A stretch of DNA of 64,000 bases from Eledone cirrhosa (Eukaryota): positions 12,772,001-12,836,000 of the forward strand of contig OZ024759.1 of NCBI GenBank assembly GCA_964016885.1. Direction: 5' to 3'. Of this stretch, positions 3,386-32,399 are shown piece after piece; within the stretch, counting starts at the first letter, position 1, and every line of letters begins with the position of its first letter. The notes below the pieces were generated by a model that was not told the origin of the DNA, did no database searches, and saw nothing but the letters and a program-made list of their open reading frames with translations. Position numbers and translations under genes: made by a program.

Positions 3386-5659
3386 AAAGTGTTTGCGCAT
3401 GCTCATTTATAAAGTAAAACAAAATGGCTGTGTAAATGTTTTGATACTTTTCAAACTGTAGAAAAACAGTTAAAAAGTGGGATTTTACTATTTTCAGGAA
3501 GGTAAAGTATATCTTTATATTATATTGAACAGTTTAATTAAAACATTATATATTTAATTCCTTTCATGTCACTAATAACTGTTTAAACGGTAGTCCGCAA
3601 TTCTACCGAGAAAATTAGTCGTATTCTTTAAAAAAATATCTACGAAACGAAGGGAGGTAACTCGTATTGATTCGGTAGACTTTTTTTTTAACAAGAAAAT
3701 TAAGTGCATTGGTGGTATTGTGACGATGAGGGGGATTCGATCTCTGACCTTAGGAGATAATACAAGACGACCATGTCCTTTCCTGCTTATACAGAGAGAG
3801 TTTGTGTGCAGTTAAGAATGTTACTTCTTTTTTGCCAATAGAAATTTAGTGATACCCTCTTGTTCAAGTGGATAGTTTAGTGACTATACAAACCGGGCAT
3901 GTCTCTAACTGGTTTATCTGACCGTAGGAGATCCAATCATGCCCTCCTCTGCTTATTTTTTACTATATAGAGAGAGTTTGTGCGCGGTTAGGGTTTGCAC
4001 ATATGTTTGCCAATAGAATTTCAGTGACACTTTGCTGTTCAACTGGACTGTACAAGCCAGACATGTCTATAACTATGGTTTAGCTGACCATAGGAGATAC
4101 TCCAAGCCAACCATGCCCTTCTCTGCTTATTTCACCCTCAATTAGAACATCGTATGAGAAGTACACACTCCTCTGTGGCCATAGGAAATGCTGACCATGG
4201 TGCACCTGATTGTAGGACATCGTATGGGTAGTACACACCTTTATTTCGCCCTAGGTAGCCGTAGGAGATTCTACATTCAGCTGACTAGAACATCGTATCA
4301 GAAGTACACACCTCTATGGTTTAGCTGGCTGTAGATCCTACAACCAGTTCATTTGTTAATTGGCACTGACCTTAGATCCTTTAAGCCAACCATGCCCTTA
4401 CACTGCTTGTGTCACCCTAGGTGGCCATATGAGATCCTTTGCCCTCTAACTAGCCACTCAACACAGTGTAATTTGACATTTCAATACCACTTTGAAGCAG
4501 AGTAACATCAAGCCTTCGAGGTGTGGGGAAATCACTTGCTATTGGGAAAAGATAAAGGTGAGACACAACAAAAGGAGGAATGGATTGACACTTGCCTCTC
4601 CTACCAAATATTCCCACGTCTTGTGTATACAGTCACCAAAGTATCCACAACTGATGAACAACTTTGCCATCATCGAATGCCAATGGAAAACCATGAATGC
4701 ACTCCATACCCACACACAAATATATATACAAACTCTGCCTACGACTATTGACATTGTAAAAAAAATATACATGTGAATGATTTTATGGATACAATTTCTG
4801 AATTTAAAAGCCTCCTCTTTACACCAACGCACGAACAATTTTCTTGTGAAAATATCTATTTTCCGAACAAATTACTTCCATCCATTTCATTTACATATCT
4901 TTTTTTCAACGGATAATAAAGATTTCTTACCTTCTTATAGACACCTCCAAGTATATGTCTTAACAAATGTGAATTATACATCAATTAAATTAATATTTTT
5001 TATTTGTGTTCTATATGTGAAGCTCACGGTGGAGAGATGCTGTGCTGAATAGGACCCGTCCCACCCTTGCAAACAGGGAAAAGCGGACATAAAATGATGA
5101 TGATGTGACGGGAGTATTCAAGGCTAGTGATGCGATTGCAGAGCCTCTCCTTTGCAGGGGAAGTGACAGCTGCTGTGCGGGGAAGTAACTGCCACTGTCT
5201 ACAGCTTCCTGTGTGCACAGTCATATGGCCACTCCCTAATTGTGTGTCCAGAAACACATTGTTTCTACAGAGCTTGCTGCAAGGGTGCTTATAAGTGAGC
5301 GATTGGCTCATATTAGTCTTGGTTGACAACCAGCAGTCATCTCAGAATGCTGAGCCACTGGAGAAGGACTGACCAAGTACACACTTGTACCAGAGTCTGA
5401 GGATTAAGGACTGGCCTCTACACCCACCTCAGGGTGTTCTACCACACAGAACAGGACAACAGTTCTTTCCATTGATCTTAACAAGCAAGGAATTCGCCAT
5501 TCATATTCTATATGCGACTGATGGATAGATACACTGGTTCTCAACGGTGTCATGATAAACTTAGTGAGGGACGGGGCACTTGGAGAGGAGATGGCCACCG
5601 TCAAACATTTCTGTGGCCCAATGAAATGTCCTAACATTGGTAAACTTAATAAGCATTGT

Positions 5660-10400: not shown

Positions 10401-13400
10401 ACCTCTACCACTACATACTGCCTGACCACAGCCAGCCTACTACTACCTCTACCACTACATACTGTCTGACCACAGCCAGCCTACTACTACCTCTACCACT
10501 ACATACTGCCTGACCACTGCCAGCCTACTACTACCTCTACCACTACATACTGCCTGACCACAGCCAGCCTACTACTACCTCTACCACTACATACTGCCTG
10601 ACCACAGCCAGCCTACTACTACCTCTACCACTACATACTGTCTGACCACAGCCAGCCTACTACTACCTCTACCACTACATACTGCCTGACCACAGCCAGC
10701 CTACTACTACCTCTACCACTACATACTGCCTGACCACAGCCAGCCTACTACTACCTCTACCACTACATACTGCCTGACCACAGCCAGCCTACTACTACCT
10801 CTACCACTACATACTGTCTGACCACAGCCAGCCTACTACTACCTCTACCACTACATACTGCCTGACCACAGCCAGCCTACTACTACCTCTACCACTACAT
10901 ACTGTCTGACCACAGCCAGCCTACTACTACCTCTACCACTACATACTGTCTGACCACAGCCAGCCTACTACTACCTCTACCACTACATACTGCCTGACCA
11001 CAGCCAGCCTACTACTACCTCTACCACTACATACTGTCTGACCACAGCCAGCCTACTACTACCTCTACCACTACATACTGTCTGACCACAGCCAGCCTAC
11101 TACTACCTCTACCACTACATACTGTCTGACCACAGCCAGCCTACTACTACCTCTACCACTACATACTGCCTGACCACAGCCAGCCTACTACTACCTCTAC
11201 CACTACATACTGTCTGACCACAGCCAGCCTACTACTACCTCTACCACTACATACTGTCTGACCACTGCCAGCCTACTACTACCTCTACCACTACATACTG
11301 TCTGACCACAGCCAGCCTACTACTACCTCTACCACTACATACTGTCTGACCACAGCCAGCCTACTACTACCTCTACCACTACATACTGTCTGACCACAGC
11401 CAGCCTACTACTACCTCTACCACTACATACTGCCTGACCACAGCCAGCCTACTACTACCTCTACCACTACATACTGTCTGACCACAGCCAGCCTACTACT
11501 ACCTCTACCACTACATACTGTCTGACCACAGCCAGCCTACTACTACCTCTACCACTACATACTGTCTGACCACAGCCAGCCTACTACTACCTCTACCACT
11601 ACATACTGTCTGACCACAGCCAGCCTACTACTACCTCTACCACTACATACTGTCTGACCACAGCCAGCCTACTACTACCTCTACCACTACATACTGTCTG
11701 ACCACAGCCAGCCTACTACTACCTCTACCACTACATACTGTCTGACCACAGCCAGCCTACTACTACCTCTACCACTACATACTGTCTGACCACTGCCAGC
11801 CTACTACTACCTCTACCACTACATACTGTCTGACCACTGCCAGCCTACTACTACCTCTACCACTACATACTGCCTGACCACAGCCAGCCTACTACTACCT
11901 CTACCACTACATACTGCCTGACCACAGCCAGCCTACTACTACCTCTACCACTACATACTGCCTGACCACAGCCAGCCTACTACTACCTCTACCACTACAT
12001 ACTGTCTGACCACAGCCAGCCTACTACTACCTCTACCACTACATACTGCCTGACCACAGCCAGCCTACTACTACCTCTACCACTACATACTGTCTGACCA
12101 CAGCCAGCCTACTACTACCTCTACCACTACATACTGTCTGACCACAGCCAGCCTACTACTACCTCTACCACTACATACTGTCTGACCACAGCCAGCCTAC
12201 TACTACCTCTACCACTACATACTGCCTGACCACAGCCAGCCTACTACTACCTCTACCACTACATACTGTCTGACCACAGCCAGCCTACTACTACCTCTAC
12301 CACTACATACTGCCTGACCACAGCCAGCCTACTACTACCTCTACCACTACATACTGTCTGACCACAGCCAGCCTACTACTACCTCTACCACTACATACTG
12401 CCTGACCACTGCCAATCTACTACTACCTCTACCACTACATACTGACCACAGCCAGCCTACTACTACCTCTACCACTACATACTGTCTGACCACAGCCAGC
12501 CTACTACTACCTCTACCACTACATACTGTCTGACCACAGCCAGCCTACTACTACCTCTACCACTACATACTGTCTGACCACAGCCAGCCTACTACTACCT
12601 CTACCACTACATACTGTCTGACCACAGCCAGCCTACTACTACCTCTACCACTACATACTGTCTGACCACAACCAGCCTACTACTACCTCTACTGGTACAT
12701 ACTGTCTGACCACAGCCAGCCTACTACTACCTCTACCACTACATACTGCCTGACCACAGCCAGCCTACTACTACCTCTACCACTACATACTGTCTGACCA
12801 CAGCCAGCCTACTACTACCTCTACCACTACATACTGTCTGACCACAGCCAGGCTACTACTACCTCTACCACTACATACTGTCTGACCACAGCCAGCCTAC
12901 TACTACCTCTACCACTACATACTGTCTGACCACAGCCAGCCTACTACTACCTCTACTGGTACATACTGTCTGACCACAGCCAGCCTACTACTACCTCTAC
13001 CACTACATACTGTCTGACCACAGCCAGCCTACTACTACCTCTACCACTACATACTGTCTGACCACAGCCAGCCTACTACTACCTCTACTGGTACATACTG
13101 CCTGACCACAGCCAGCCTACTACTACCTCTACCACTACATACTGTCTGACCACAGCCAGCCTACTACTACCTCTACCACTACATACTGTCTGACCACAGC
13201 CAGCCTACTACTACCTCTACCACTACATACTGCCTGACCACAGCCAGCCTACTACTACCTCTACTGGTACATACTGTCTGACCACAGCCAGCCTACTACT
13301 ACCTCTACCACTACATACTGCCTGACCACAGCCAGCCTACTACTACCTCTACTGGTACATACTGTCTGACCACAGCCAGGCTACTACTACCTCTACTGGT

Positions 13401-14720
13401 ACATACTGTCTGACCACAGCCAGCCTACTACTACCTCTACCACTACATACTGTCTGACCACAGCCAGCCTACTACTACCTCTACCACTACATACTGTCTG
13501 ACCACAGCCAGCCTACTACTACCTCTACTGGTACATACTGCCTGACCACAGCCAGCCTACTACTACCTCTACCACTACATACTGTCTGACCACAGCCAGC
13601 CTACTACTACCTCTACCACTACATACTGTCTGACCACAGCCAGCCTACTACTACCTCTACCACTACATACTGCCTGACCACAGCCAGCCTACTACTACCT
13701 CTACTGGTACATACTGTCTGACCACAGCCAGCCTACTACTACCTCTACCACTACATACTGTCTGACCACAGCCAGCCTACTACTACCTCTACCACTACAT
13801 ACTGTCTGACCACAGCCAGGCTACTACTACCTCTACCACTACATACTGCCTGACCACAGCCAGCCTACTACTACCTCTACCACTACATACTGCCTGACCA
13901 CAGCCAGCCTACTACTACCTCTACCACTACATACTGTCTGACCACAGCCAGCCTACTACTACCTCTACCACTACATACTGTCTGACCACAGCCAGCCTAC
14001 TACTACCTCTACCACTACATACTGTCTGACCACTGCCAGCCTACTACTACCTCTACTGGTACATACTGTCTGACCACAGCCAGGCTACTACTACCTCTAC
14101 CACTACATACTGCCTGACCACAGCCAGCCTACTACTACCTCTACCACTACATACTGTCTGACCACAGCCAGCCTACTACTACCTCTACCACTACATACTG
14201 CCTTACCACAGCCAGCCTACTACTACCTCTACCACTACATACTGTCTGACCACAGCCAGCCTACTACTACCTCTACCACTACATACTGTCTGACCACAGC
14301 CAGCCTACTACTACCTCTACTGGTACATACTGTCTGACCACAGCCAGCCTACTACTACCTCTACCACTACATACTGTCTGACCACAGCCAGGCTACTACT
14401 ACCTCTACCACTACATACTGCCTGACCACAGCCAGCCTACTACTACCTCTACCACTACATACTGACCACTGCCAGCCTACTACTACCTCTACTGGTACAT
14501 ACTGACCACTTCCAGCCTACTACTACCTCTACTGGTACATACTGACCACAGCCAGCCTACTACTACCTCTACCACTACATACTGACCACTGCCAGCCTAC
14601 TACTACCTCTACCACTACATACTGACCACAGCCAGCCTACTACTACCTCTACCACTACATACTGACCACTGCCAGTCTACTACTACCTCTACCACTACAT
14701 ACTGACCACTGCCAGCCTAG
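7445..14720. repeat. 44-bp minisatellite/satellite, ~165 copies
   Basis: Unit ctgaccacagccagcctactactacctctaccactacatactgt, highly homogeneous, with a few 40-bp variants. Confidence 0.98.
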
Positions 14721-15040: not shown

Positions 15041-15614
15041 TCTACTACGTCTACTGGTACATACTGTCTGACTACCCTCTACGAAGAAATGGCGACCATC
15101 AACCATAGACATAACGAAGCAAAATGTGATATCAGCCATAGAAGAAACTCAGCTGCTGGAGCCGCAGGATTCCCAGCACCCTAGGTGGGTGGGTGTGCGC
15201 CATAATAGGCTCCAATCCTAAAAAATGCGCCCCTAAAGTTTCTGTGCGCCCAAGTTGGCTTTAACAGTGGCGCCAATCCTAAAAAAATGTGCCCTTAAAG
15301 TGTGTGTGCACCCTAGTAGGCTTTAAGGATACCGCTAATCTTGTATCTTACAACGTGGCTCAATCTTGCGTCTATGTTGGGAGCGTTGTATATGTTGTGT
15401 CGTCAAGTATGAAAGTTTTAGAAATTTGTTTTGTTTTTTTTTACAAATCTCGAGAAATTTCATACTTGACGACCCAATATATGTTCAAGGGTTTCTTTCG
15501 AATGAAACGGGGTCATGCTGCCTATAAAAACAGACGACCCTGTTGGATTTCACTTCAATTTATTAAATTCCAGTTGTTATCTCCTTTATTCTGTCCTACA
15601 CCAACTTGTCTTTG

Positions 15615-15950
15615 TGGGTATATATACCATTAGGTAAATAATGGGGTATATATACCATTAGGTATATAATTGGGTATATATACCATTAGGTATATAATGG
15701 GGGTATATATACCATTAGGTATATAATGGGGGTATATATACCATTAGGTATATAATGGGGGTATATATACCATTAGGTATATAATGGGATGTATATACCA
15801 TTAGGTATATAATGGGGTATATATACCATTAGGCATATAATGGGGTATATATACCATTAGGCATATAATGGGGTATATATACCATTAGGTATATAGTGGG
15901 GTATATATACCATTAGGTATATAATGGGGTATATATACCATTAGGTATAT
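15615..15950. repeat. ~30-31-bp minisatellite with palindromic core, ~11 copies
   Basis: Unit ggtatataatggggtatatataccatta(g); core ggtatatatacc is self-complementary. Confidence 0.95.
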
Positions 15951-16497
15951 GTTTAGAATAGCGAACCAATGTAACTGACGTAATTTGAAAAAAAAAGGCT
16001 TTTTTCGAAATGAGTATGTTAACTGTGTATATGTGTGTATATATAGGTATTAACTGTGTGTATATATATAATAACCCTATGTGTGTATATATAGGTATCA
16101 ACTCAGTATGTGTGTATATATAATAACCTTATAGGTGTTAACTCTGTTTATATATAGATGTTAACTATCAAAAAATAAATAACATTTTACATATGAGATT
16201 TACAGCTTCGCGTGGCGATGCACGCAGCTGTTCGGACTTGGTCGCCTACTTATGTATGGCGTGACCATGTGTCAGAAGATGGAATCGCTGCGAGGGTACG
16301 GGGCCTAGTTGGTAGCCGGGACTATTTGCAGGCTGGCTACATGCTAGCCTGCGCGAGGAATCCGTCTTATCCCATTTACTTTAAATTTGATTAGAATGAT
16401 CTCCCTTTATTTAGAGTTACTTCCCCTTTATGGTACTCTTCTCTTTTTTTATTTGCTTTTCGGTACTTTGAAAAAATTCATTTTGCATATTGTTTTC

Positions 16498-17835
16498 ATA
16501 ATAATAATGAAATTATTGTGTAAAGTGCTCAGGTGCACTACAACTCGTCAAAGGTGTATGTATAGTACATAGAATAATACACAAATGTCAGGGAAGTACA
16601 TGTGTGTATGTGTTAGCTGTAGTGTTGGCGGATCTCGGGAAGCATGGAGGCCTTAAAGGATGCGGTGTCTCGACAGCTAACAACTGATGCAGGTAGTTTG
16701 TTCCATGCTTCAGCAACTCTGGGCGTGAAAAAATGTTTCCGAAAGTCATGGGAACTGTGCTGTTTTCTGACTTTGTAGGTATGCCCACGTGTGTTAGACA
16801 CATGGAAATCAAAAAGGTACTCAGGGTTGTTGTTGGCAACATGGTTAACAATTTTGTGGGTGTTTACTAAATCATTTGCCAGGCGTCGGAGCTTCAATGT
16901 ATCCATGCCCAGGGAAGCAAGGCGCTCAGAGTATGGTAGATGCCTGATGGAGGGTATTCGCTTGGTTGCACGTCCCTGAACAGTTTCCAGGCGGTCAATA
17001 TTCTGAGCAAGATAGGGGTTCCAGACTGGTGATGCAAATTCTAAGTGTGGTCACACCATAGCCATGTACAGCCTTAAATAGATAGCTGGAGAGCGGCTGA
17101 CAAAGGTCTTGCTGAGTGATGCTAAGACACCCTCGGCCCTCTTGACAATTTTAGAGACGTGCCTCGTCCAACGCAAATCGCTGCTGACCGTAATGCCCAG
17201 GTCACGTTCACAAGAAGACTTCTTGATATGAGTGCTGTGGAGGGAGTATGTGGACGCTGGGTTTTTACTCCCAAAATGCATGGTGGTGCACTTGTCCACA
17301 GCTAGCTTGAGTTGCCAGTCTGAGATCCATTGTTGCATTTTGTCCAGGTCAGACTGCAAGCAAGATCTATAGTGTTCAGGATCTGTCCTTTTTATCTCAA
17401 GGTACAGCTTGATGTCGTCTGCGTACTTTAGTACTGTGGCATTCTTTAAGTTGGCATCTATGTCATTAATATATGCCACAAACAAAAGGGGGCCAAGAAC
17501 AAATCCCTGTGGTACACCAGATGACATCTCATGTGGTGAGGAATGCTGTCCCAGAACCTTGACTACCTCTCTTCGACTGAGAATGAAGGACTTCAACCAG
17601 TTAAAAAGATCATCCTTCACACCCATTGCAGAGAGTTTTGCCATAAGCCTTTTGTGTGGCACAGAATTGAAGGCTTTCGCAAAGTCAAGGTAAACAACAT
17701 CCACCCATGAGCCGCCATCAGTGATCCGGGTGATGTCCTCAAGAAACTCTATCAGTTGATCACAGCAGCTGGAGTTGGGGATAAATCCAAATTGCGAGGG
17801 CCGGATAAGACTGTGAGAGCTCCAGAAGTTCCAAA
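16498..17835 (-). mobile_element. 5'-truncated CR1-clade LINE (RT domain and C-terminus), inserted in the left palindrome arm
   Basis: DVVYLDFAKAF, SGVPQG.VLGPLLF, YADD, LQSDLD, TRGH..K...RV...WNKLP motifs; one in-frame TGA at ~17051; (ATT)n tail near 16498. Confidence 0.93.
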
Positions 17836-19152
17836 GTGTATAGAGGTATGTAATGTTATCTTTGCTGTATATTATCGAAGAAACTAAACCTTCTCTCTAT
17901 ACACATACATTTTATTAGATACACACTTTATGTCAATAAACCTCACATACATTTTGGATATTGTGTTTATGTGAAGAGGCTTTTTATGTGGCTTTCTGGC
18001 ACATCTTAATATTAATCAGAATCTTTTGGAACTGTCATCTTTGATCAAGATCAATATTATATCCGTCTTGTTTTGAACGAAATTTTTTTTTAGATATGAT
18101 CATCGTAATCAACGATTAACTGTTGGTCAGTACTAACTAGATCGATATCATTTTAATATACGTAGCATAGAACCATTTAGATTCTTCTTACGAAACTTCA
18201 TTTACTTTCTTTGTTCGTTTTCAACACTTCATTTCCATTCTTAGTTTCATTCTTTAGAAACTTGATTTACATTAAACTTCATTTACATTCTTAGTTTAGT
18301 TACCTCCCTCGATGTAGGAAAGGTTTTCTTGTTTCCTCTGTTTAATTCTATATATAATAAAAGACAAAATGTAAAATACTTTCATTTCCTTTTACCGATG
18401 TCCAGCCTTCAAGGTCATATGCTGTGTTGTTTGCCGTAACAAGTGGGAATGGTGAAGTTTCTGTTAATAAAAAAGGTTACATATTATATACAAATCATGT
18501 TCAGTTTATTTTTACAAAAATGAATAAAGAAATCAAGTAGAGGTTTACCTTTTAACTAGGTCCAGCAGTTGCCTCAAAAGGTAGATGGCATACGTAGTAC
18601 TTTTACCTGTCACAAATCCAAACTATAGAGGTATGTAATGTTTTCTTTGCTCTATACACATACATTTTATTAGATACACATTTATGTCAACAACTCTCAC
18701 ACTTTGGATCTTGTGTTCATGTGGCTTTCTGGCACATCTTCACCCACTCAACATGCTTTCTTTGAAATTAAAAAATAATACACATACAAATAGTGTTACC
18801 CCTTCTAAGAAACTAAACCATCTCAACACTATATACATACTTTCTAACTCAAATTTGTCTCTATAAACCTCATTCCGTAGATCTTTCTTTAGAGACATAC
18901 ATATAAAACGTTATATGTTTTTATGTATAAGCACAAGCAATCATACACATTCTACATATTGTACTCAAGAAAGCTAGCTAATCGATGTCTTATATACGTT
19001 TTATAGTCTTTCATTGATGTATTACTAAATGATACAATGAAAGATATATTCTTTTGATGTTACAATATTAAAGAAAATGTAAAGGAAGGGGTGAAAAACA
19101 GAGCCAACACCAGAGCAAAAGATAGCAACGTCGCGAGTGCTGGGCAACTTCT

Positions 19153-20340
19153 CTAATGATTTTTGAGGCAAGCCAGCACACTCGCAGCGTTACCTCGGGT
19201 GATGGCGAGGCTGATGCACTGAAGCAGCCAAGCACCCTCGCAAGATTCGCCAGTTATCTCTATTAGGTGAGCCGCCAGTGAGGAAATGAACCTCGCAGTC
19301 AGCGGCCCGACTCCCCCAAACGTCTCGAAAGCCACAGGCTGAAAAATGTAGCTGGCCGACAGATGAGAGTATTTGAAGGTCTTACTCCGCTCGGCTGCAG
19401 AAGCTGTGGCTCTCGTCCTAACCGCAGCATCCAGGATGTGGGAAAGAGCAAAAGAGTCACTAACTGTGACGTTCCAGACAAGGCACCTGCCTCTCGATCT
19501 GGGGCACAGGGTAAGACCGTCAGGTCTTTTGCCGTCACTTCTGGACAACCCAGATGGTTCTAAGACCGAGGGGGGGCCAACGCTCTCTTCAGAATGAGGT
19601 TTAGCTACGTGTGACGCGCGAAGAGGGCGGCAAGAAAGATCATGGAGGCCTGTAGAGTCGAGGAGTTTGCCGCATCGGCACCTCAAACCTATGCAGACGT
19701 CAGCTCCCACTCTGAGGGCGATGGAGACACGAAGTTCGTCCAGGTTGAGTAGGCCACCAACGTTAGCCACGAGTAGGGCATCGACCCAGTCGCCTGAGTA
19801 TTTGGAGCTGGCAGATAGTAAGCGGCACCTTGCAAGCTGATCTGACTGGACGAAAAGGAGTCGAGCCCAACTCACTCCATTGCTGGAGAGCAGAGGATGT
19901 TGCTCACCAGGGTTGAGCAAGTGTGGGTGGAGGAAAGGAAACCGGGGAGAGAGAGGGACGAACACTTACGAAGACCAAGACCCCCAAATCGCTTGGGCAA
20001 CGCAGCCTGATCGCGGGACTCCGGAGAGAGTCTAACATTGACCAGGCACTCGAATCTCTCGAAGATTAGGTAGTCGAAGCGTTGGAGGCAGGACGGAAAT
20101 CTGTGAGAGGGGCTGACCCTGAGCAGATACAGAAGCTTAGGAATAGACAGGTAGTTCCTGAGTATGAAGAAACCTTGATGGGGTTCGATAACTTCGATAT
20201 TCCTCAGCAGCTGCTCAAGGCCAACCATCTTCGATTGGAAGGTTGACTCGAAGGCCAGGTCTGTGATTGGGGCTCCTAAGGACCACCAAACCGACGGGGG
20301 AGGGACCGCAATGGAAGGGAAGGACTCTGCGAACAGGTCG
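19153..20340 (-). mobile_element. 5'-truncated non-LTR retrotransposon with restriction-like endonuclease, CRE-clade-like, frameshifted
   Basis: Thumb motif LP.RFGGLG, zinc finger C.CG......GLH.LSC, RLE motif KRPDGLT....W.VTV.D...E..K..KY, and F.P.AFET.G. Confidence 0.8.
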
Positions 20341-21329
20341 ATCGTTATAATTCACTATGTTTGCATTGGGCTAAAATGATTCATAATGATGCAAACACCC
20401 AGACATATAAAACTATATACTCTCTCTCAACTAAGAAAAATATATAAACCTTCTTCTCTAGACCTTTCCTTTTTTCTTCTAATAAACCTCTATACACAGC
20501 TACATTTTATTATCTTCTCTATTTCTTTCACACGTGTCCTCTTGTATGTAGTGAGAAACCTTTGTGAGAATCGAACTCACGATTGTAAAGTCCGACAACT
20601 TTACATAAATACTTTGCGCATTGATGTCCAATTTTTACGGCGCATGCGTACTTTAGTAAAATTAAATGGCCGCATGAAGAACTTCATGTTTTACAACGTG
20701 AATTAAAAAAACGTTAAAAACTTGGATTTTACTCATTTTACGGAGGTAAAGTAAAGCTTTATTTTATGTTGACCAGTTTTGAAACATTTTCTGTTTATTT
20801 CCCTCCATAATGTCAGAATTATTTAAACATTAGTTTTGTTTAGCGACATCTTACATTCTAATGTAATACAACACCCCCCTCATACATATTTCTTGCTCAT
20901 ACGAAATAGTGTATTTTATTAATTATTATTTAAGCTGGTAAATAATATACTTCTATTTCCCTTCATGATATCCTCGTATTTTGTAATCAGAGGTTAACTG
21001 TTGATCAGTGTTAATTAGATCGATATCGCTTTAACTTTTAAAATACAACCATTTATATTCTTAGTTTCTTACGCTAGAAACTTCATTTACATTTTTAGTT
21101 TCTTTTTTTCAACACTTCATCTACATTCTTAGTTTCCTTCCAACAATATTATTTAGACGATAGTTTTGTTTAAGCTACTGCCACATTTCTCTGTCATATG
21201 AATTAGAATTTAGCTTATTTTCTTTCTTATTTAAATAATATATTTCTAGTTCCCTTCACGATATCCTCGTGTTTTGTTGTAAATTCGTTTTGGAGGACTT
21301 GCTCCTGTCACACATGATGTTGGTTGCTA

Positions 21330-21510
21330 TATTCTGGTTATTAAGGACGCCATGCTTTGCAGCATAGAGTTACGTCCCTTTACGGTTTGAGTTCAAATCC
21401 CGTCGAGGTTAACTTTGCCGTTCATCCTTACGGAGTCGATAAAATAAAGTACCAGTAATGTACTGGTGGGTAATTGCTGGCCTTCTGCCAAAAGTAGAAA
21501 TAATTAATAT
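21330..21510 (+). mobile_element. SINE-B copy
   Basis: gagttcaaatcccg...ttcatccttacggagtcgataaaataaagtaccagt core. Confidence 0.8.
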
Positions 21511-22650
21511 TAACCAGAATCTTTTTAGATCTGTCGTCTTGTTTTGGCCATAAAACTTAGGTTTTGTACCCATTTTTTTTAATAGATACCATGATCGTAA
21601 TATAAGATTAACTGTTGATCAGTGTTAACTAGATCGATATCACTTTAACCTACGTAACATAGAACGATTTACATTCTTAGTTTCTTCTTACGAAACTTCA
21701 TTTACTTTCTTTGTTCCTTTTCAACACTTTATTTACATTCTTAGTTTCCTTTCTTTAGAAACTTCATTCATAGTTTCTTTTTCCATTTACATGCTTAATT
21801 TTAGACACTTCATATACATTTTTAGTTTCTTTCTTCAGAAACTTCATCTACAGTCTTGGTTGTTTTTTTAGATATCATCATCATTAACCAGATCGATATC
21901 GCTTTAACTTTTAATCTACGTAACAAATAACCATTTACATTCTTAGTTACTCCCTCGATGTAGGAAAAGGTTTTCTTCTTTCGTCTAGTTAAATGTATAA
22001 AAGACAAAATTGGACGAATTTTATAAAGTTTAACATTCTTTTTATTGATAACGTATGTAAATGACTTTCATTTCTTTTACAGATGTCCAGCCTTCAAGTT
22101 CCTCTGCTGTGTTGTTTGCCGTAACAAGCGGGAATGGTGTAGTTTCTTTTAATAAAGAAAGTTTACACATTATATACGAATTGTATTGTTTATTTTTCCA
22201 AAAATGAATAAAGAAAGTTTACATCTTATATACGAATTGTGTTCAGTTTATGTTGACAAAAATGAATAAAGAAATCAAGAGTCTACAAGAAACTAAGTAA
22301 GCCGTGCTATAAAGAACGTAAGTGTATTGAAGTTTCTAAATAAAGAAACTAAGAGTAAGATAAAGTTTCCTGAAAGAAACTGAGAAAGATGAAGTTTCTA
22401 AATAAAGAAACTAAGAGGTAGATAAAGTTTCTTGAAAGAAACTGAGATTAACGAAATTTCTAAATAAAGAAACTAAGAATGTTTTTGAAATTATCGAGAG
22501 AAAAAATCTATGAAATAAGACCCCCTCTTTTTAATTTTTTTTATTAAAGGGAGGTAACTCTGTAATATTTTGAAACGAATTACCTCCCTTGCAGAAACAC
22601 CTTCGTCACCGTTGTTACCACCGTCGCCACCTTCGTAACCGTCGTCACCA

Positions 22651-22905
22651 TTACCGCCGCCACCTGGTGGCGGAGGTAAAGATACCGACGAAGACGAAGG
22701 TGCACCGTCGTCTTCGTCGATATCTTTACCGCCGCCACCTGGTGGCGGAGGTGAAGACACCGACGAAGACGAAGGTGCACCGTCGTCTTCGTCGATATCT
22801 TTACCGCCGCCACCTGGTGGCGGAGGTGAAGACACCGACGAAGACGACGGTGCACCTTCGTCGTCGTCGGTATCTTTACCTCCGCCACCAGGTGGCGGCG
22901 GTAAT
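22651..22905. repeat. GC-rich 75-bp tandem units, each made of two palindromes
   Basis: ttaccgccgccacc recurs at 22651, 22726 and 22801. Hairpins are ccgccacc(t/a)ggtggcgg and gacgaagacga(a)ggtgcaccgtcgtcttcgtc. Confidence 0.92.
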
Positions 22906-23749
22906 GGCGACGACGGTTACGAAGGTGCCGACGGTGGTGCTGATAACGATGGTGACGAAGGTGGTGATTTTGCAAGGGAGGTAATTCTTTCAAAATATTT
23001 CAGTTACCTCCCTTGAATAATAAAAAAAAAAGCGTCCCATTTCATAGATTTTTCTTTCGACAATTTCAAAAACATTTTGTTTCTTTTAGAAACTTCATTA
23101 TTTTTAGTTTCTTTATCATTTTTTAGAAACTTCATCTTTCTCAGTTTCTTTCAGGAAACTTTATCTACCTCTTAGTTTCTTTATTTAGAAACTCCAATAC
23201 ACTTACGTTCTTTATAGCACGGCTTACTCAGTTTCTTGTAGACTCTTGATTTCTTTATTCATTTTTGTCAAAATAAACTGAACACAATTCGTATATAAGA
23301 TGTAAACTTTCTTTATTCATTTTTGTCAAAATAAACTGAACACAATTCGTATATAAGATGTAAACTTTATTTATTCATTTTTGGAAAAATAAACAATACA
23401 ATTCGTATATAAGATGTAAACTTTCTTTATTCATTTTTGAAAAAATAAACAATACAATTAGTATATAATATGTAAACTTTCTTTATTAAAAGAAACTACA
23501 CCATTCCCGCTTGTTACGGCAAACAACACAGCAGAGGAACTTGAAGGCTGGACATCGGTAAAAGAAATGAAAGTCATTTACATACGTTATCAATAAAAAG
23601 AATGTTAAACTTTATAAAATTCATCCAATTTTGTTTTTTATTATATATACATTTAAAATAGAGGAAACTAAGAATGTATATGAAGATTCTAGAAAGAGAA
23701 ACTAGGAATGTAGATGAAGTGCATAAAGAAGAATGTAATTGGTTATTTG

Positions 23750-24505
23750 GGCATACGTCAAAACGGCCGGTCGCATAAGCGAAACTAATTTTTGACAGTT
23801 ACGTTCGTCATTATTTTCAATTTGGATTGTGAATTTGTTTGTTTTTTTACAACAGGTCTCAATAGTGAAAGTGAATTTTGTTGATGGTGTTAATTAGTAT
23901 TGCGTGTTCATGATATTTTTTTTCTTTCTTTTTTTGTGTATTGTGTGTACGGAAATTGTTTTTTAAATAATGACTGTGTGTGTTGAAAGAAAGAAATTTT
24001 TTTTTTTTTTTAAAGTAACTACAGTTATACGTTTGTTGCATATAAAATATAAATTGACGTACCTTAATTACACCCTATAAATAGCTGAAATACAGTTGAT
24101 CATCTCGCCAAACTTGTTGGCACCAACTCTCTGCCGCCAAAGAAATTCAGATAGATATGAGGGGAATAAAACATCGCTTGTCCCATGCTGGCGACGAAAC
24201 TTTTTCTTTGCACGGCTCCATGTGTTCTCTATGAGTTGTGTGTGCACATTAGGATCTTCAGGATCTTCAAAGTCCATTGGTGCACAAGAACATCATGGAC
24301 GTAAATGCCACCTTGAATCTCTTCAATATCCGAATAGGAAGCCCAACCATCGGACATGATGTGGCTTCCATCAACAAAATTCACTTTCACTATTGAGACC
24401 TGTTGTAAAAAAACAAACAAATTCACAATCCAAATTGAAAATAATGACGTACGTAACTGTCAAAAATTAGTTTCACTTTTGCGACCGGCCGTTTTGACGT
24501 ATGCC
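23750..24505 (-). mobile_element. Non-autonomous Merlin (IS1016/ISXO2-like DDE) DNA transposon, 756 bp
   Basis: ~138-bp TIRs starting GGCATACGTC; 9-bp TSD ggttatttg at 23741-23749 and 24506-24514. Frameshifted transposase C-terminus IMSDGW.SY...H...DP...HTQ.IEN.W...K...YL.EF.WR at 24068-24370. Confidence 0.9.
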
Positions 24506-26297
24506 GGTTATTTGTTACGTACATTAAAAGTTAAAGCGATATCGATCTGGTTAATATTTGATTACGATGATGATGTCTAAAAAAAACAAAAAAAAACAAC
24601 TACTAAGTTTCTTTCTTTAGAAACTTCATCTACATTCTTAGTTGATTTTTTAGGAATGTCAATAATGAAAAAAGAAACTAAGAATGTAAATGGGTAGGTT
24701 AAAGTGATATCGATCTAGTTAACACTGACCAACAGTTAATCTTCGATTACGATGATGTTATCTAAAAAGGTTCGCTCAAAACTTAAGTCGTCGGGCTTTA
24801 CAATCGTGAGTTCGATTCTCAGACCGGACTTTGCGTTTGCTCCAAATCACACAGTAGAAATTAGTTGGACAACAAAAGGGTTCTCTCTACGTACAAGAGA
24901 ACACATGTGTGCGAGAAATGCTTCATTGGGTGTTAAAGAAATAAAGATAATAAAAATATAGCTGTATATAGAGGTTTTCTTAGAAGAAAAAAGGAAAGGT
25001 ATCTTCCTGTATAGAGAAGAAGGTTTATATATTTTTCTTAGTAGACAGTATATAGCTTTATATGAATGTCTCTAAAAAGATCAGATAGTAAAACGTATTT
25101 TTGTGTCTCAAGAATATCTGCTAGTGCTGACAAGATTTACTATGTATTCAATAAAGAAAGATCTACAGAATGTTGTTTATAGAGAGAAATTTGAGTTATA
25201 TTTCTTAGAAAGTATGTATATAGTGTCGAGATGGCTTGGTTTAGTTTCTTAGAAGAGGTAACCCTATTTGTATGTGTAGTTATTTTTTTTACTTTCAAAT
25301 AAAGCATATCGAGTGTGCCAGAAAACATGAACATAATATCCAAAGTGTGAGAGTTATTGACATAAGGTGTGTATCTAATAAAATATATGTGTACAGAGAA
25401 AATATTACATACCTCCATGCATTAGGAAAGTATTATCCAAAATGATTTTCTTTCAAAGAACCGGAAGTCAATCGAAAAAGGAGAAGAGCTCCATAATCAA
25501 ATTTAGATTTAAAAAAAAACGATTGCTCGCGTGTCTTCGCAACGATTCGATCTTCCGACACATAGATTGGTTACGCCTTACGTAAGTAGGTAAGAAAGTC
25601 CGAACAGCTCCGCGCATCACCACGCGAAGGCACAATAATTCTCCTGAGTAAATTAGTCATACTTATAGCTAAAATTTTCTTTAATTAAAAAAATATATAT
25701 ATATAAAGGGAAAGAAAGCAAGATAACACGCCTCAAAATATATTCCGTGTGTTACCTTACTCTCATTCCGTTTCTATATATGAATTAATTTAAAAACTAC
25801 TAGAATTTAGTACATATATACCGAACAATTAATATTTAAGTAAATATACATGTTTCTGTAAATAAAAAAAAACATACTCTTTTACTTGTTTCAGCCATCC
25901 GGCTGAGGCCATGCTGGGGCAGTATATATATATATAAATTTTGTTCTAAGTTTATCGCCGTGTTTCTTTGTTAAGTATCTCAGAGTACAAGACTTTCCTT
26001 GGATAGGATGCTAGTCTATCGCAGGATTAACTTCCTAACTACTGATGTACTGGAACAACGTGATATAAAGTTTTTTCTTTTAAGAGAACACTTGAGTGTG
26101 TTGGTTGCAGGAAGAAGTATACAGCAGGTTTCTTATATTTATATATAATAAATGTAATCTGAGTTTTTCGAATATTAATGATAACATTCGATTCATTTGT
26201 AATTATGCAAACAAGCCTCATTTTTATAGCCATGTCAGTAGAATGAACTCTTCATTCTTGCTCTTGTATTGGCATTATATATATATATATATATATA

Positions 26298-29175
26298 CAT
26301 CTCGTGAAATAGCGGAGATGCTGGAGAGAAGGCATGTGGATGTGTGCTGCGTGCAAGAGGTAAGATGGAGATGTGCCTCTGCGAGACTAATCGCAGGCAA
26401 ACATCTTAATTATAAGCTTTTCTGGGTAGGTAAGGATGATGGGTTAGGGGGAGTAGGCATTTTCCTGGCTGAGAGATGGATCAATAAGACAATAGAGGTA
26501 GTTTGAGTTAGTAATCGAATAATTAAGCTTAGATTAGTTGTAGGTAGGAGACTACTGACAATCTTCTCTGCCTATGCTCCCCAAGCAGGCCTAGGTAAAG
26601 AAGAGAAAGACTGCTTTTACAAGCAACTTTTACAAACAGCTGCAATGACAGAGGACGGAGACATCGTTATGCTAGCAGGAGACTTCAATGGTCATGTTGG
26701 ACAACTCCAGGATGGTTACACTGGGGTTAATGGTGGGCATGGTTACAGCTCAAGAAATGAAGGAGTGAGACTTCTTGAATTTTGTGACGCAAATACACTG
26801 ACTATTTGCAACACTAACTTCCAGAAACCTGCCAGCCACCTAATAACCTACAAACCAGGCAAGCACTTAAGCCAGATGACTTCTTACAAGTTAGGCAGCG
26901 GGACAGCCAGATGGTGTCAAATACCAAGGCATACTCTGGGGAAGAATGCACCCCACAGCATAGGTTAGTCGTTAGTGATATCTCAGTAAGCAAGAGATGG
27001 AATGAGACCTACAGGAAGGTGTGGAGAAGAAAGGTCTGGAAGCTAAAAGACCTTTCACTAAAATACAAATGTAGGAAAGCCCTTCAAGATGTGTATGACG
27101 AAAAAGAAGACGATTTAGAGTCGTATGACATAGATAATAACTGGAATTTCTTACGTGACAATTTACTACAGGCTACTGATTAAACTTGTGGCTGGAGCAG
27201 AGCTCCAACCAGACAGAGAGTGACCTGGTGGTGGAACAGCACAGTAGATAATGCCATTAGATACAAAAGACTAGCATGGAAGGCTTGGAAAAAGGGTGGG
27301 AGTAGAGAATGATATACAGCCGCTAAGAGAGAAGTTAGACGTCAGGTGTACTTAACACGCAGGGAGGCTGAGAGTAGGAGGTTTGCCAATGTTCTGCGAC
27401 GGGAAGATCACAGGCGTGCGGTGTTCCACATTGCAAGGCAGTGTGTCAATGCAAATCAGGGTGTTGTTGGAGATAAACGTGTCCGGAATGATGCCGGTGT
27501 ACTTAGTGTCATGAATGATCAGAAAAAGGATGCCTGGAAATGTCATTATGAGAGACTGATGAATGTGGAGAACGAATGGGAGAGAGAGAAATTACCCTTA
27601 GTAGATCCAACAGAGGGACCAGCCATTGAGATTGACGAATATAGGGTCCAAGAAGTGATTAAGGAAATGAAAAATGGTAAGGCTGCTGGACCATCGGGAA
27701 TAGTTGCTGAAGACATCAGGGGTCGTAGACACTAAACTGGTTGCACGCATAATCAATCAGGCTACATATGGTGGTGCCATACCCAAAGACTGGTGCAGCA
27801 GTATTCTCATAAATTGCTACAAAGGTAAAGGGGATGCTCTGGAGAGGAGCAATTATAGGGGTATAAAACTGATAGATCAGGTTATGAAAGTGGCAGAAAG
27901 GATATTAGCACAACTAATTAGAGAAAGGGTCAAACTAGATGAGATGCAGTTTGGTTTTGTGCCTAGGAAGAGTACAACAGATGCCCTCTTCTTGGTGAGA
28001 CAATTGCAAGAGAGGTTCTTAGAGAAAAATAAGCCACTATACTTAGCCTTTGTTGACCTAGAGAAGGCCTTTGATAGGGTACCCCGATCTGTCATCTGGT
28101 GATCCCTAAGGAAACTAGGTGTTGAGGAATGGTTTGTGAGGACAGTGCAAACTTTGTACAGAGGTACTCTCAGTAAAGTCAGGGTAGGAATGGAGTTTAG
28201 TGAGGAATTACAGATACAAGTGGGAGTACATCAAGGTTCGGTCCTCAGCCCGCTCTTGTTTATTATAGTCCTCGAAGCCATAACAGAGGAGTTTAAGACT
28301 GGCTGTCCATGGGAACTTCTCTATGCTGACGATCTGGTTCTTATAACAGAATCAGTAGAGGAGCTAGAGAATAAATTCTGGCTATGGAAACAGCAGTTGG
28401 AAGCAAGAGGACTGAGAGTGAACCTAGCTAAGACAAAACTCTGATTCTGTCAGGGAAATGGCCATGTTCGATATGCAGAAAAGGAACTGGCATAAATTCT
28501 ATAAAATGCACACAATGCAGATCCTGGGTACACAAGAGATGTAGCGGGATAGCAGGCAAACTAACAGGTAGAAAGAAATATGTATGCAGTAGATGTACAG
28601 CGAAATTAGACAGTAGAAGTCGCATTGATAGACACATTTTTCAAATGCAGGCGGGTGCTATAGAAGTGGTGGATAGCTTCCGGTACCTAGGAGATCAGAT
28701 TAGCATGGGATGGGGGGGGGGGGGGGGTTCTGAGGCCATAGTATCTAGAATAAGTGTGGGTTGGAAGAAGTTTAGGGAGCTGCTTCCTCTGCTGACGAAG
28801 AAGGGTTTCTCCCTGCATACGAAAGGCCGGTTATATGATGCCAATGTGAGGAGCGCGATGCTGCATGGTAGTGAGACTTGGGCAGCAACTGCAGAGGATG
28901 TGCGACGGCTGGAGAGAAATGAGGCAAGCATGCTCCTTTGGATGTGCAGTGTAAATGTGCATGAACGACCCAGCATGGATGTGTTGAGAGAGAAACTGTG
29001 TCTGAGAGGGATAGAATGTAATGTGTGAGAGAGGAGACTGAGGTGGTATGGACATGTGATACGCATGGAGGATGACCGATGGGTGAAGAAGTGTCAGGAA
29101 ATGCCAGTTGAAGGAAGACGTGGTAGAGGTAGACCACAAAAAACATGGGCGGGGAAGTTGAGAACAAACCCTAAG
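26298..29175 (+). mobile_element. Near full-length decayed RTE-clade LINE ORF (APE endonuclease + RT), multiple stops and frameshifts
   Basis: VDVCCVQEVRW, GDFNGHVG, NYRGIKL, FVDLEKAFDRVPR, GVHQGSVLSPLLF, LLYADD, RWYGHV motifs. Confidence 0.95.
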
Positions 29176-29204
29176 ACCTTCTTTAAATATGCAAAAGAGA
29201 CTGC

Positions 29205-30658
29205 CTTAGGGTTTGTTCTCACCACCTCCGCCCATGCTTTTCGTGGTCTACTTCTACCACGTCTTCCTTCAACTGGCACTTCTTTACCCATCGGTCATCC
29301 TCCATGCGCATCATATGTCCATACCACCAGTCTCCTCTCTCGCACACTACATTCAATCCCTCTCAACACATCCAACGGAGCATACTTGCCTCATTTCTCT
29401 CCAGCCATCGCTGCCCAAGTCTCTCTACCATGCAGCATCGCGCTCCTCACACAGGCATCATATAACCAGCCTTTCTAACGCAGGGGAAAACCCTTCTTCG
29501 CCAGCAGCTCCCTAAACTTCTTCCAACCCCTCATTCTAGATACTATGGCCTCGGAACACCCCTCCTTCCATGCTAATCTGATCTCCTAGGTACCGGAAAC
29601 TATCAACCACTTCTATAGCACCCGCATGCATTTGAAAAATGTCTATCAATGCGACTTCTACTGTGATCTGCGATTTCCCTGTACATCTACTGAATACGTA
29701 TTTCTCCCTACCTGTTAGTTTGCCTGCTATCCCACTACATCTCTTGTGTACCCAACATCTGCATTGTGTGCATTTTATAGAATTTATGCCAGTTCCTTTT
29801 CTGCATATTGAAGATGGCCATTTCCCTGACGGAATCAAAGTTTTGTCCTCTTTTCTACTCATCAACAATTTTGTCTTAGCTAGGTTCACTCTCAGTCTTC
29901 TTGCTTCCATACCTTGAATTTATTCTCTAGCTCCTCTACAGATTCTGCTATAAGTACCAGATCGTCAGCATAGAGAAGTTCCCATGGACAGCCAGTCTTA
30001 AACTCCTCTGTCATGGTTTGGAGGACTATAATAAACAAGAGCGGGCTGAGCGCTGAACCTTGCTGTACTCCAACTTGCATCTGGAATTCCTCACTAAACT
30101 CCATTCCTACCCTGACTTTACTGACAGCACCTCTGTACACAGTTTGCACTGTCCTCACAAGCCATTCCTCAACACCTAGTTTCCTTAGGGATCACCAAAT
30201 GACAGATTGGGGTACCCTATCAAAGGCCTTCTCTAGGTCAACAAAGGCTAAGTATAGTGGCTTATTCTTCTCTAAGAACCTCTCTTGTAATTCTCACCAA
30301 GAAGAGGGCATCTGTTGTACTTTTCCCAGGCACAAAACCAAACTGCATCTCATCTAGTTTGACCCTTTCTCTAATTAGTTGTGCTAATATCCGTTCTGCC
30401 ACTTTCATAACCTGATCCATCAGTTTTATACCCCTATAATTGCTCCTCTCCAGAGCATCCCCTTTACCTTTGTAGCAATTTATGAGAATACTGCTGCACC
30501 AGTCTTTGGGTATGACACTACTATATATAGCCTGATTGATGATGCGTGCAACCAGTTTAGTGCCTACGTCCCCTGATGCCTTCAGCATCTCAGCAACTAT
30601 CCCTGACAGTCCAGCGGCCTTACCATTCTCATTTCCTTAATTGCCTCTTGGACCCTAT
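29205..30658 (-). mobile_element. Inverted copy of the RT half of the same RTE family
   Basis: Reverse complement of 27640-29175 with independent indels; same RT motifs. Confidence 0.93.
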
Positions 30659-30667
30659 ATATATATA

Positions 30668-32011
30668 TCATCATCATCGTTTATCTTCCATGCTAGCATG
30701 TGTTTAGACAGGAATTGTCCCACGTGAGGCAAGATTGGTTGCCTTGCTCGTATAGGACTGTCTAGCGGCTTTTCTACGGCTGGATGCCCTTCCTAACACC
30801 AACAACGTTTACAGTGTGGACTGGGAGGTTTTACCGTGTTACCTACACGGCCACATTACAGCATGGACTGTGTGTCTTTTTTGTCGTGACACCTACACAA
30901 CCTCATTTATTTCGGACTGGATGTTGTGGCACCAACATAACTTTAGGTGTAGATGGGGGTAAGGGTAGTAGGGTGGGGGTGTATTTTTGGTTAGGAGGTG
31001 CCTACTGACTGTAGGTTTCGCTTTGTACTTAGGCAAGGCAGGTCTTCTGTATTACTGCGTAGCGCCAAAGATCTCGGTCCAGTGACATTGTCTTGGAGAG
31101 GTGCAAGTGTGTAAGGTCGGAATTTATCAAATCGTCCCAGGTTTTTCTGGGTCTGCCTACTCCGTAGCTTCCATCTATTTTGATTGCCCTGCACTTTTTT
31201 ATACAGCTGTCGTCTTTCATGCGCATCACGTGACCATACCAACGTAGTCTTCTCTTGAGTAAACAACATCTGAGCCCTCTTATTCCTAATTTCTCCCTTA
31301 TTACTATTACACATCCAATGGAGCATGCAAGCTTCGTTCCTCTCCAGTCTGCGCAGATCCTCTGCACACAATGCCCATGTCTCACTGCCATGTAACATTG
31401 CTGTTCGTATGCAGGCATCATACAGTCTGCCTTTAATTTTTAGGGAGAACCCTTTAGTGGCCAACAGTGGTATAAGCTCTCTGAACTTTTTCCATCCCAT
31501 TCTGACTCTAGCTACTGTACTTTCAGAGCACCCACCACCACTGCTGATTTTGTCACCCAGGTAACGGAAGGTGTCCACTATTTCTATAGAACCATCTGGG
31601 CAATGGAAGGAGCTAGTATCCTGTGGGCACTTGCTAATACTTATTGCACCAGAGCACCGGCCACATATAAAATTTACGTTCTTAGATAGCTTACCTGTGA
31701 TCCCACTACATCTTTTATGCACCCATACTTTGCATTTGGGACATAAAATGGAGTTTCTGCCTACTCCTTTCCTACACACTGAGCATGGCCATTTCCCAGA
31801 GGGTACCAGTGCCCTATTTTCCTTCCTATATACTAGAACTTTAGTCTTAGACAAGTTAATTTTAAGGCCTTTTGATTCTAGGCCATGCTTCCAAGAATTT
31901 CTTCACTAGTTCAGCCATTGATTCGGCTATGAGCGTTATATCATCTGCGTATAGAAGTTCCCATGGGCAGACGGTCTTGAACTAAGGGCAATAAAAAATA
32001 GGAGAGGGCTA

Positions 32012-32012
<1 letters not shown>
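30668..32012 (-). mobile_element. RTE LINE 3' portion (different subfamily) with tail
   Basis: PWELLYADD, KWPCSVCRKGVG.NSI.C..C..WVHKRC, MLHGSETW, GRPRKTW; tail at 30668-30830. Confidence 0.9.
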
Positions 32013-32045
<33 letters not shown>

Positions 32046-32399
32046 GTGGTAAAAAAACCAGGAGTTTATATCCATAGTTGGTAGAGCACTCAATCCAAAA
32101 GACAAGTGTAGTATAGAGTTAGTTCCACATGGTTTAATTTGTTGTAGAAGTGGGGGAAGAATTACTTCACTGGGGCTTGATGTTCTTTAATAATTCAAAT
32201 CTTTAAAACAAGTTATTGATATTGGTTAATATAAATAACTTATTGTAAAGATTTGAATTAAAAAACACCAACCACCAGGGAAGTAACTCTACGCCCTTTT
32301 TTACACATTTACCTTACTCCACCAAAGAGTTCACTTCATATTCTAAAACATACGCACACACATGTGTATATATATATATATATACACACATACATATAC

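What the first reader, a model, noticed from the sequence alone, without database searches (positions are those of the whole stretch)
16206..25630. ~9.4-kb giant degenerate palindrome of unknown element type
Seen: nested mirror-image blocks run from a GC/CpG-rich ~90-bp terminal motif (cttcgcgtgg.gatgc.c..agctgttcggactt, at 16206 and inverted at 25630) inward to an exact axis in GGTG|CACC at 22777/22778. Inner arms look nearly identical while outer blocks are more diverged and rearranged. Later insertions (CR1, CRE-like, SINE, Merlin) are each in one arm only. I see no TSD and no native transposase. Inference: either a Foldback-type DNA transposon or an integrated head-to-head dimer of a linear, hairpin-ended replicon (virus- or plasmid-like).
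Basis: partly seen in the sequence, partly recalled or inferred. Interest (0 to 1): 0.75.

Follow-up and report, generated by a model that had tools for sequence, protein, structure and literature searches.

The report
Chromosome-spreading palindrome with CTCF-site core
This mirror-image stretch is a worn copy of a family of 17 palindromes, 16 of them on one chromosome, in which two likely non-coding gene units meet at a GC-rich hairpin carrying perfect matches to the CTCF insulator motif; the family likely spreads by duplicating its neighbourhood rather than as a transposon or virus.

Summary
The inverted repeat and its axis (22777/22778) are real, but the 'terminal motif' is not an end, and this copy's arms are only 77-95% alike in blocks. 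The GC-rich core occurs at 17 loci (16 on C20, 1 on C19). Inner arms are more alike within a locus (median 98.5%) than between loci (90.7%). Arms come from a wider modular family (110-209 search candidates) with conserved splice-donor and acceptor motifs and no conserved ORF. I found no shared termini, no TSD, and no transposase, Rep, PolB or recombinase domain in 147 representative ORFs. Copies sit inside 10-40 kb segmental duplications. Each core holds 2-4 hairpin axes; 57 of 59 carry the perfect CTCF consensus, which is 16-fold enriched in this genome. Best reading: a non-coding palindromic core duplicon, kept symmetrical by arm-to-arm copying. A Foldback transposon is less likely and a viral dimer unlikely. 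CTCF binding and transcription are untested. The scan has noted other palindromes in this genome, but none with this sequence.

The parts
15208..16205 (+). Left outer module (62-bp and 28-bp tandem repeats, AT-rich); shared with other copies, no defined end
16206..16497 (+).
   Evidence: CpG o/e 1.08 against 0.35 for the window
16498..17845 (-). Inserted LINE fragment (CR1-type by recall) with RT domain; absent from the C20:10.50 Mb copy
   Evidence: Pfam RVT_1 E 1e-31; empty junction
17846..18915 (+). First, shortened arm unit: donor-like GTATGT at 17846, exon-2-like block with a mutated acceptor, second donor-like GAG|GTATGT at 18630/18631
18916..20399 (-). Inserted non-LTR-retrotransposon-like fragment (CRE-like by recalled motif; boundaries approximate)
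   Evidence: ORFs; no Pfam hit; contigs join 18909 to 20424
20400..22082 (+). Intron-like arm modules, including a block with GCGCATGCG (20600-20810) and a SINE (21345-21506); ends in an intact acceptor-like TTTTACAG
22083..22539 (+). Exon-2-like block starting ATGTCC, 56-bp repeats with AATAAA, a second donor-like GTAAGT near 22319, 31-bp repeats
22548..22589 (+). Small hairpin AGGGAGGTAA..TTACCTCCCT (mirror copy at 22975-23013); occurs family-wide downstream of the exon-like block
22600..22960 (.). GC-rich nested-hairpin core: 75-bp units with two alternating axes; four CTCF-consensus axes at 22658-72, 22733-47, 22808-22, 22883-97; main axis 22777/22778
23014..23740 (-). Right inner arm (31-bp and 56-bp repeats, exon-2-like block; acceptor AG mutated at 23556-23557)
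23750..24505 (-). Merlin (IS1595-type) deletion derivative, 138-bp TIRs, 9-bp TSD GGTTATTTG at 23741-49 and 24506-14
   Evidence: (PF12762 E 6e-5, under the curated cut-off)
24515..25630 (-). Right intron-like modules, donor-like GAG|GTATGT at 25413/25412, CCGGAAGT at 25461-68, CpG-rich block 25530-25630
25631..26134 (-). Right outer module of a different subtype; homology frays, no TSD
22151..32194 (+). Block duplicated to C19:14.06 Mb (96% overall, 98-99% near the core), bounded there by microsatellites

Best explanation
It is a decaying, likely chimeric member of a 17-copy family of tail-to-tail palindromes whose arms are copies of a non-coding, likely spliced unit and whose shared core carries CTCF-consensus sites; the family likely spreads by segmental duplication of the core with 5-20 kb of flank and is likely kept symmetrical by arm-to-arm copying. 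Shown: the shared core, its confinement to C20 (plus one recent C19 copy), arms more alike within than between loci, duplicated flanks, ragged ends, no native protein domain. Inferred: (1) one arm unit folded back once inside a GGT/GAC triplet run, which made the core and, by symmetry, the CTCF match; (2) further fold-backs or slippage at the two axes gave 2-4 units with T/A flip-flop at the axis; (3) the hairpin stalls forks or breaks, and repair copies the block some megabases along the same chromosome; (4) gene conversion or renewed fold-back rewrites one arm from the other. In this window that homogenisation has lapsed, so insertions sit in one arm only.
For: Core at 17 loci, 16 on C20 from 9.2 to 35.2 Mb. 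Inner-arm identity: own-locus median 98.5% (n = 17) against 90.7% between loci; own arm is clearly the closest in 10 of 16 usable loci, tied in 3, not in 3. Profiles stay mostly at 95-100% for 1-3.7 kb and then stop. Shared flanking blocks: 20 and 22 kb, 41 and 36 kb including satellites, 10 kb to C19. Two flank probes: 3 of 3 copies at 98% or more, and 5 of 5 long copies at 89% or more, lie within 6 kb of a core. Neighbouring loci tend to be closest relatives (tree). No common terminus or TSD. No transposase, Rep, PolB or recombinase among 147 representatives of 281 ORFs from 94 module-bearing loci, 592 kb. Donor 9-mer: 0.67 parsimony changes per column against 3.16 (50 rows, permutation p 1e-5); acceptor 1.0 against 2.65 (63 rows, p 0.006). 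Frameshifting indels in both conserved blocks. Head-to-tail arm units also exist (L167).
Against: Loci were found through the core, so 'all share the core' is circular, and only two flank probes were tested. Conversion is not separated from re-duplication; no pedigree, population or long-read data. The GC-bias test was not significant and pointed the other way (both-arm W>S 5, S>W 9; one-arm 25 and 17; p 0.14). The wider family also forms facing pairs 2-10 kb apart around a 30-bp array, as Foldback elements do, and old transposon ends could be buried. Transcription is not shown. The CCGGAAGT motif is not conserved above background (p 0.64). Parsimony counts depend on alignments anchored on a fuzzy motif; 77 of 127 donor rows and 2 of 65 acceptor rows were dropped by an identity filter.
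Confidence: 0.55

Rival explanations
1. A non-autonomous Foldback-type TIR transposon (Galileo/FB/Tm1-like) with extended, recombining arms that captured a promoter and exons; the flank duplications are secondary.
For: Long modular inverted arms with internal tandem repeats, chimeric copies and variable arm length match what is described for Galileo (PMC3573991 passages). At least 110-209 candidate copies.
Against: No shared terminus or TSD at 16 palindrome boundaries or at the outer ends read. No transposase. Arms run into shared LINE and SINE remains. Subfamilies are chromosome-restricted and carry flanks. Head-to-tail units exist.
Confidence: 0.2
2. The core itself drives spread through hairpin-capped extrachromosomal intermediates (ODIRA-like template switching), which regenerate the palindrome from one arm at each jump.
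For: Flat, high arm identity that ends abruptly; 2-4 axis units with T/A flip-flop; flank duplicates always beside a core in two probes; mechanism described in yeast (PMC10766183 abstract).
Against: Several duplicated blocks carry different left and right flanks copied together, which fits plain duplication of a whole palindrome. No origin activity or extrachromosomal DNA was tested.
Confidence: 0.15
3. An integrated head-to-head dimer of a linear hairpin-ended virus or plasmid.
For: A GC-rich nested hairpin with flip-flop axes resembles parvoviral termini (recalled). The genome holds 29 Parvo_NS1 matches.
Against: No NS1 hit on C20; 0 of 11 stretches fetched around NS1 hits share a module. 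No Rep, PolB or recombinase domain in family loci. A 26-mer of the core is absent from viral and metagenome contigs. The core's outer half resembles host GATGGT/GACGAT triplet repeats (L162, L163). Arms carry splice motifs and host repeats.
Confidence: 0.04
4. Assembly artefact from fold-back long reads.
For: No listed contig spans the stretch; no long reads were available.
Against: This copy's arms differ by 5-23% and by four insertions. Seventeen loci share one axis with locus-specific variants. Summed short-read contig depth over the core is 107-172, where contigs unique to this copy run at about 2-7 (one sample, possibly the assembled one).
Confidence: 0.02

Closest known systems
Primate core duplicons (LCR16a/NPIP; palindromic GOLGA8)
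   Same: A shared core found in interspersed duplication blocks along one chromosome, with variable flanks (PMC7419210 passages; the GOLGA8 paper seen only as a reference title there).
   Different: Those cores are about 20 kb and protein-coding. This core is about 0.4 kb plus 1-4 kb arms, has no ORF, is itself the palindrome axis, and lies in an invertebrate (likely octopus) genome.
Y-chromosome palindromes with arm-to-arm gene conversion
   Same: Arms more alike within a locus than between loci (PMC8600007 abstract).
   Different: Here the palindromes are kilobase-sized, have almost no spacer, and form a dispersed family; whether C20 is hemizygous is untested.
Foldback-like transposons (Galileo, FB, Tm1) and Pack-TIRs
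   Same: Long modular inverted arms, internal tandem repeats, arm extension, chimeras (PMC3573991 and PMC3169594 passages; PMC8277862 abstract).
   Different: Those have fixed ends, 7-9 bp TSDs and a cognate transposase; none was found here.
CTCF-site arrays at chromatin boundaries
   Same: Perfect match to the human consensus CCASYAGRKGGCRS (PMC6746451 passage); a CTCF-like motif is enriched at squid TAD borders (PMC9023564 passages).
   Different: Here the sites are produced by the palindrome's own symmetry and are carried by a duplicating unit; binding is untested.

Membership tests
Foldback / TIR DNA transposon | Long modular inverted repeats with internal tandem repeats | tested here: met
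Foldback / TIR DNA transposon | Termini shared across copies | tested here: not met
   Homology frays at different points; only fetched copies were read, not all
Foldback / TIR DNA transposon | Target-site duplication | tested here: not met
   None seen by eye at 16 palindrome boundaries; the nested Merlin does show one
Foldback / TIR DNA transposon | Cognate transposase copy | tested here: inconclusive
   None among 147 representative ORFs from 94 loci; unfetched copies remain
Hairpin-ended linear replicon (parvovirus or linear plasmid) dimer | GC-rich terminal hairpin with flip-flop isomers | tested here: met
   (shape only)
Hairpin-ended linear replicon (parvovirus or linear plasmid) dimer | Rep/NS1, PolB, protelomerase or capsid gene in the arms | tested here: not met
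Core duplicon | Core shared by interspersed duplication blocks with variable flanks | tested here: met
   loci were ascertained through the core
Core duplicon | Core is transcriptionally active | not testable with these tools
   No run on record as RNA; splice motifs are conserved
Core duplicon | Encodes an expanding protein family | tested here: not met
   Frameshifting indels and no Pfam domain in the arms
Palindrome under arm-to-arm conversion | Arms closer within than between loci | tested here: met
   this window's copy is an exception
Palindrome under arm-to-arm conversion | Conversion events seen among individuals | not testable with these tools
   Needs population long reads
CTCF insulator array | Consensus match, and motif used in this genome | tested here: met
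   57 of 59 axes; 891 matches against 54 for the reversed control
CTCF insulator array | CTCF binding and Hi-C insulation | not testable with these tools
   No ChIP or Hi-C tool
miRNA / hairpin-RNA gene | Known family or phased small-RNA products | tested here: inconclusive
   Rfam: 37 matches, all under the gathering score; motifs absent from the supplement text of PMC9699675; no small-RNA data

The most novel reading that the evidence does not exclude
A protein-free, self-propagating palindrome: a fold-back in a triplet repeat created an array of outward-pointing CTCF sites, and the hairpin now copies itself with its neighbourhood along one chromosome. It would seed new chromatin boundaries (57 of the genome's 891 perfect consensus sites lie in these 17 cores), and its two facing spliced units could yield kilobase double-stranded RNA against more than 100 related units elsewhere.
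Probability: 0.2. Interest if true: 0.8.

Novelty: new variant of a known kind. Interest (0 to 1): 0.52.

Why it matters
It gives a compact invertebrate case of core-centred segmental duplication with no gene product and no transposase, with 17 sibling loci in which arm homogenisation can be measured directly. If the cores bind CTCF, they show how boundary elements can arise from a fold-back and spread along a chromosome, which bears on the open question of how cephalopod 3D genome domains are set and move. Both ideas can be tested with existing kinds of data (Hi-C, ATAC, long reads, small RNA).

Tried and rejected
Searching for termini and TSDs outward through successive modules: none found. 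A TTAA-flanked, Kolobok-like MITE reading of the core (recalled rule): dropped, because the small hairpin occurs family-wide without the core and resembles part of the local SINE. A protein reading of the core (PPPPGGGG frame): variation leans to third positions, but second-position changes are common, there is no ATG and a stop lies upstream; no Pfam hit. GC-biased conversion: not significant. ETS motif conservation: not above background. G-U-compatible variation in the small hairpin: seen, but only about three independent changes and some hairpins are inverted, so not counted. Downstream coding exons: none in 20 further stretches; zinc-finger arrays in only 3 of all fetched loci. Expression: no RNA holder listed. 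Run X4, of unrecorded kind, covers the arms but not the core and showed no donor-acceptor joint among 15 of 19 listed joints; this is no evidence either way. Core 26-mer: 0 hits in viral and metagenome contigs. Literature: five searches of the held library and three look-ups in the scan's notes found no description of this family; Repbase, Dfam and MirGeneDB were not searchable. The C19 left-arm value (83.6%) is unreliable because that arm is truncated. The protein-database, structure and complex tools were not used.
Full report
1. Observation. The window lies at C20:12.77-12.84 Mb of a 3.0-Gb animal genome. Self-BLAST confirms nested inverted blocks between 16206 and 25630: 80.6% at the CpG-rich motif, 77-89% in most outer blocks, 95% at 21997-22274, and 85% with gaps across 22151-23375. 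The axis GGTG|CACC at 22777/22778 is exact and is the midpoint of four axes spaced 75 bp apart. The core folds at -260 kcal/mol, z = -35. Insertions are one-sided; the Merlin piece has 138-bp TIRs and a 9-bp TSD. The 'terminal motif' is not an end: the other copies stay homologous outside it, to about 15200 on the left and about 26130 on the right.

2. The family. The motif has 110 candidates genome-wide (40 scored), the exon-like block 201, two other modules 197 and 209. Closest relatives tend to share a chromosome (C13, C15, C20, C21 and others). The module order is constant: outer modules, CpG block, donor-like site, AT-rich blocks, acceptor-like site, 56-bp and 31-bp repeats, small hairpin. 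Outside C20 the units often face each other across a 30-bp array with 66-78% similar arms; one locus has them head to tail. The GC-rich core is found whole at 17 loci only, 16 on C20 (9.2-35.2 Mb) and one on C19 (all 25 candidates scored). At these loci the core is the centre of a palindrome.

3. Concerted arms. For the roughly 600-900 bp next to the core, arms of one locus are a median 98.5% identical against 90.7% between loci. The own arm is clearly the nearest in 10 of 16 usable loci, tied in 3 and not in 3, including this window (92.5%). Identity mostly stays at 95-100% for 1-3.7 kb and then ends. This fits long conversion tracts or re-copying of one arm; my data do not separate them. A test for GC-biased conversion was not significant. 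The window's arms resemble different subtypes, so it is likely a recombinant whose homogenisation has lapsed.

4. How copies spread. No common terminus or TSD appeared at 16 palindrome boundaries or at the outer ends read. Instead loci share flanks: 20 and 22 kb for pairs with the 9.17-Mb copy, 41 kb for 12.05/9.59 Mb and 36 kb for 21.5/22.5 Mb, satellites included, and 10 kb between this window and C19. Two flank probes found their close copies only beside cores: 3 of 3 and 5 of 5. Of 281 ORFs of at least 95 aa (low-complexity ones dropped) in 94 module-bearing loci, 147 cluster representatives gave only RT, endonuclease, GIY-YIG, PHD and DUF7047 hits plus two repeat-driven hits. None of 29 Parvo_NS1 matches is on C20, and 11 stretches around them share no module.

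5. The arms look like a spliced, non-coding unit. A GAG|GTATGT site is far more conserved than its surroundings (0.67 against 3.16 parsimony changes per column; 50 of 127 rows kept; p 1e-5). So is the acceptor TTACAG|A (1.0 against 2.65; 63 of 65 rows; p 0.006) and the following ATGTCC. A second donor-like GTAAG(T/C) passed the test in 28 of 37 distinct sequences. The CCGGAAGT motif upstream is not specially conserved (p 0.64). Frameshifting indels argue against coding. CpG o/e is 1.4-1.6 in all 17 cores and 1.0-1.9 in arm blocks, against 0.35 for the window. Transcription itself is untested.

6. The core. It consists of 2-4 units with two alternating hairpin axes; the central base of axis A is T or A in varying order. 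Axis A reads CGCCACC-W-GGTGGCG; 57 of 59 axes match the CTCF consensus CCASYAGRKGGCRS exactly (consensus in PMC6746451, passage). That consensus has 891 matches in this genome against 54 for the reversed control, so it is in use here, and these cores hold 6% of the matches. The 8 bases after axis A are invariant in 82 of 82 internal half-units, while positions 9-37 carry 19 alternative alleles, five of them within six bases of the other axis (Poisson p 0.005; 0.03 if one outer-half variant is counted; post hoc). The leftmost site lies on the minus strand in 17 of 17 loci and the rightmost on the plus strand in 16 of 17, an outward-pointing layout, which symmetry alone gives with even odds. The core's outer 66 bp are 98.5% identical between loci against 86-91% in the arms. 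Against over-reading: the core resembles host GATGGT/GACGAT triplet repeats, and a fold-back at GGTGGCGG makes the motif automatically. A CTCF-like motif is reported at squid TAD borders (PMC9023564, passages; echoed in bioRxiv 2025.08.29.672809, passages).

7. Mechanism. Best reading (0.55): a non-coding palindromic core duplicon. One fold-back joined two arm units at a triplet run (inferred); the hairpin promotes breakage or fork stalling and local duplication of 10-40 kb blocks (duplication shown, cause inferred); arm-to-arm copying keeps symmetry (pattern shown, process inferred). Rivals: Foldback transposon 0.2, hairpin-capped extrachromosomal spread 0.15, viral dimer 0.04, artefact 0.02.

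8. Comparison and novelty. It works like a primate core duplicon (PMC7419210, passages) combined with Y-type arm conversion (PMC8600007, abstract), and its arms behave like Galileo TIRs (PMC3573991, passages). It fails Foldback membership on ends and TSD (defining features in PMC3169594, passages) and fails replicon membership on genes. [quoted passage not shown] Searches found no account of this family. Verdict: a new variant of a known kind, interest 0.52; higher if CTCF binding or hairpin RNA is shown.

Noticed in passing
window 27639-30660: A second, 3-kb palindrome (83-89%) made of LINE sequence, centred near 29150; also present in the C19 copy and at C20:10.50 Mb.
   Followed up: partly
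L051 6322-9099 (C19:14.056-14.059 Mb): 2.8-kb palindrome (95%) of a Penelope-like element with a GIY-YIG-like frame, flanked by TA microsatellite, directly beside the duplicated core.
   Followed up: partly
L091 4919-5115, L094 5015-5554: SINE copies folded back on themselves at the same AGGGAGGTAAC motif that forms the family's small hairpin.
   Followed up: partly
L157 459-3587 and L158 2665-8026: 100%-identical inverted repeats (a 3.1-kb palindrome; 2-kb arms around an NS1-like match) at parvovirus-like insertions on C10 and C14; recent insertions or assembly foldbacks.
   Followed up: no
L165 about 1037 and L166 about 991 (C3, C8): An unrelated repeat shared by both loci also carries a perfect CGCCACCAGGTGGCG site, which suggests other repeat-borne CTCF sites.
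   Followed up: no
window 3390-4450: A diverged, rearranged member of the same modular family, 12 kb left of the palindrome.
   Followed up: partly
L025-L026 (C12:47.08-47.09 Mb): A palindrome of at least 11 kb (94%) of the family with a 30-bp array at its centre and arms running into shared LINE remains.
   Followed up: partly
L136 (C15:3.31-3.32 Mb): A C2H2 zinc-finger array (11 fingers) lies outward of one family copy; single case.
   Followed up: no
window 7449-14704 and 34199-63125: Many different satellites (44, 193, 31, 23, 29, 32, 72, 37 bp units); the window looks gene-poor.
   Followed up: no
whole genome G000: The human CTCF consensus is 16-fold enriched over its reversed control (891 against 54), simple evidence that the motif is in use in this animal.
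   Followed up: yes
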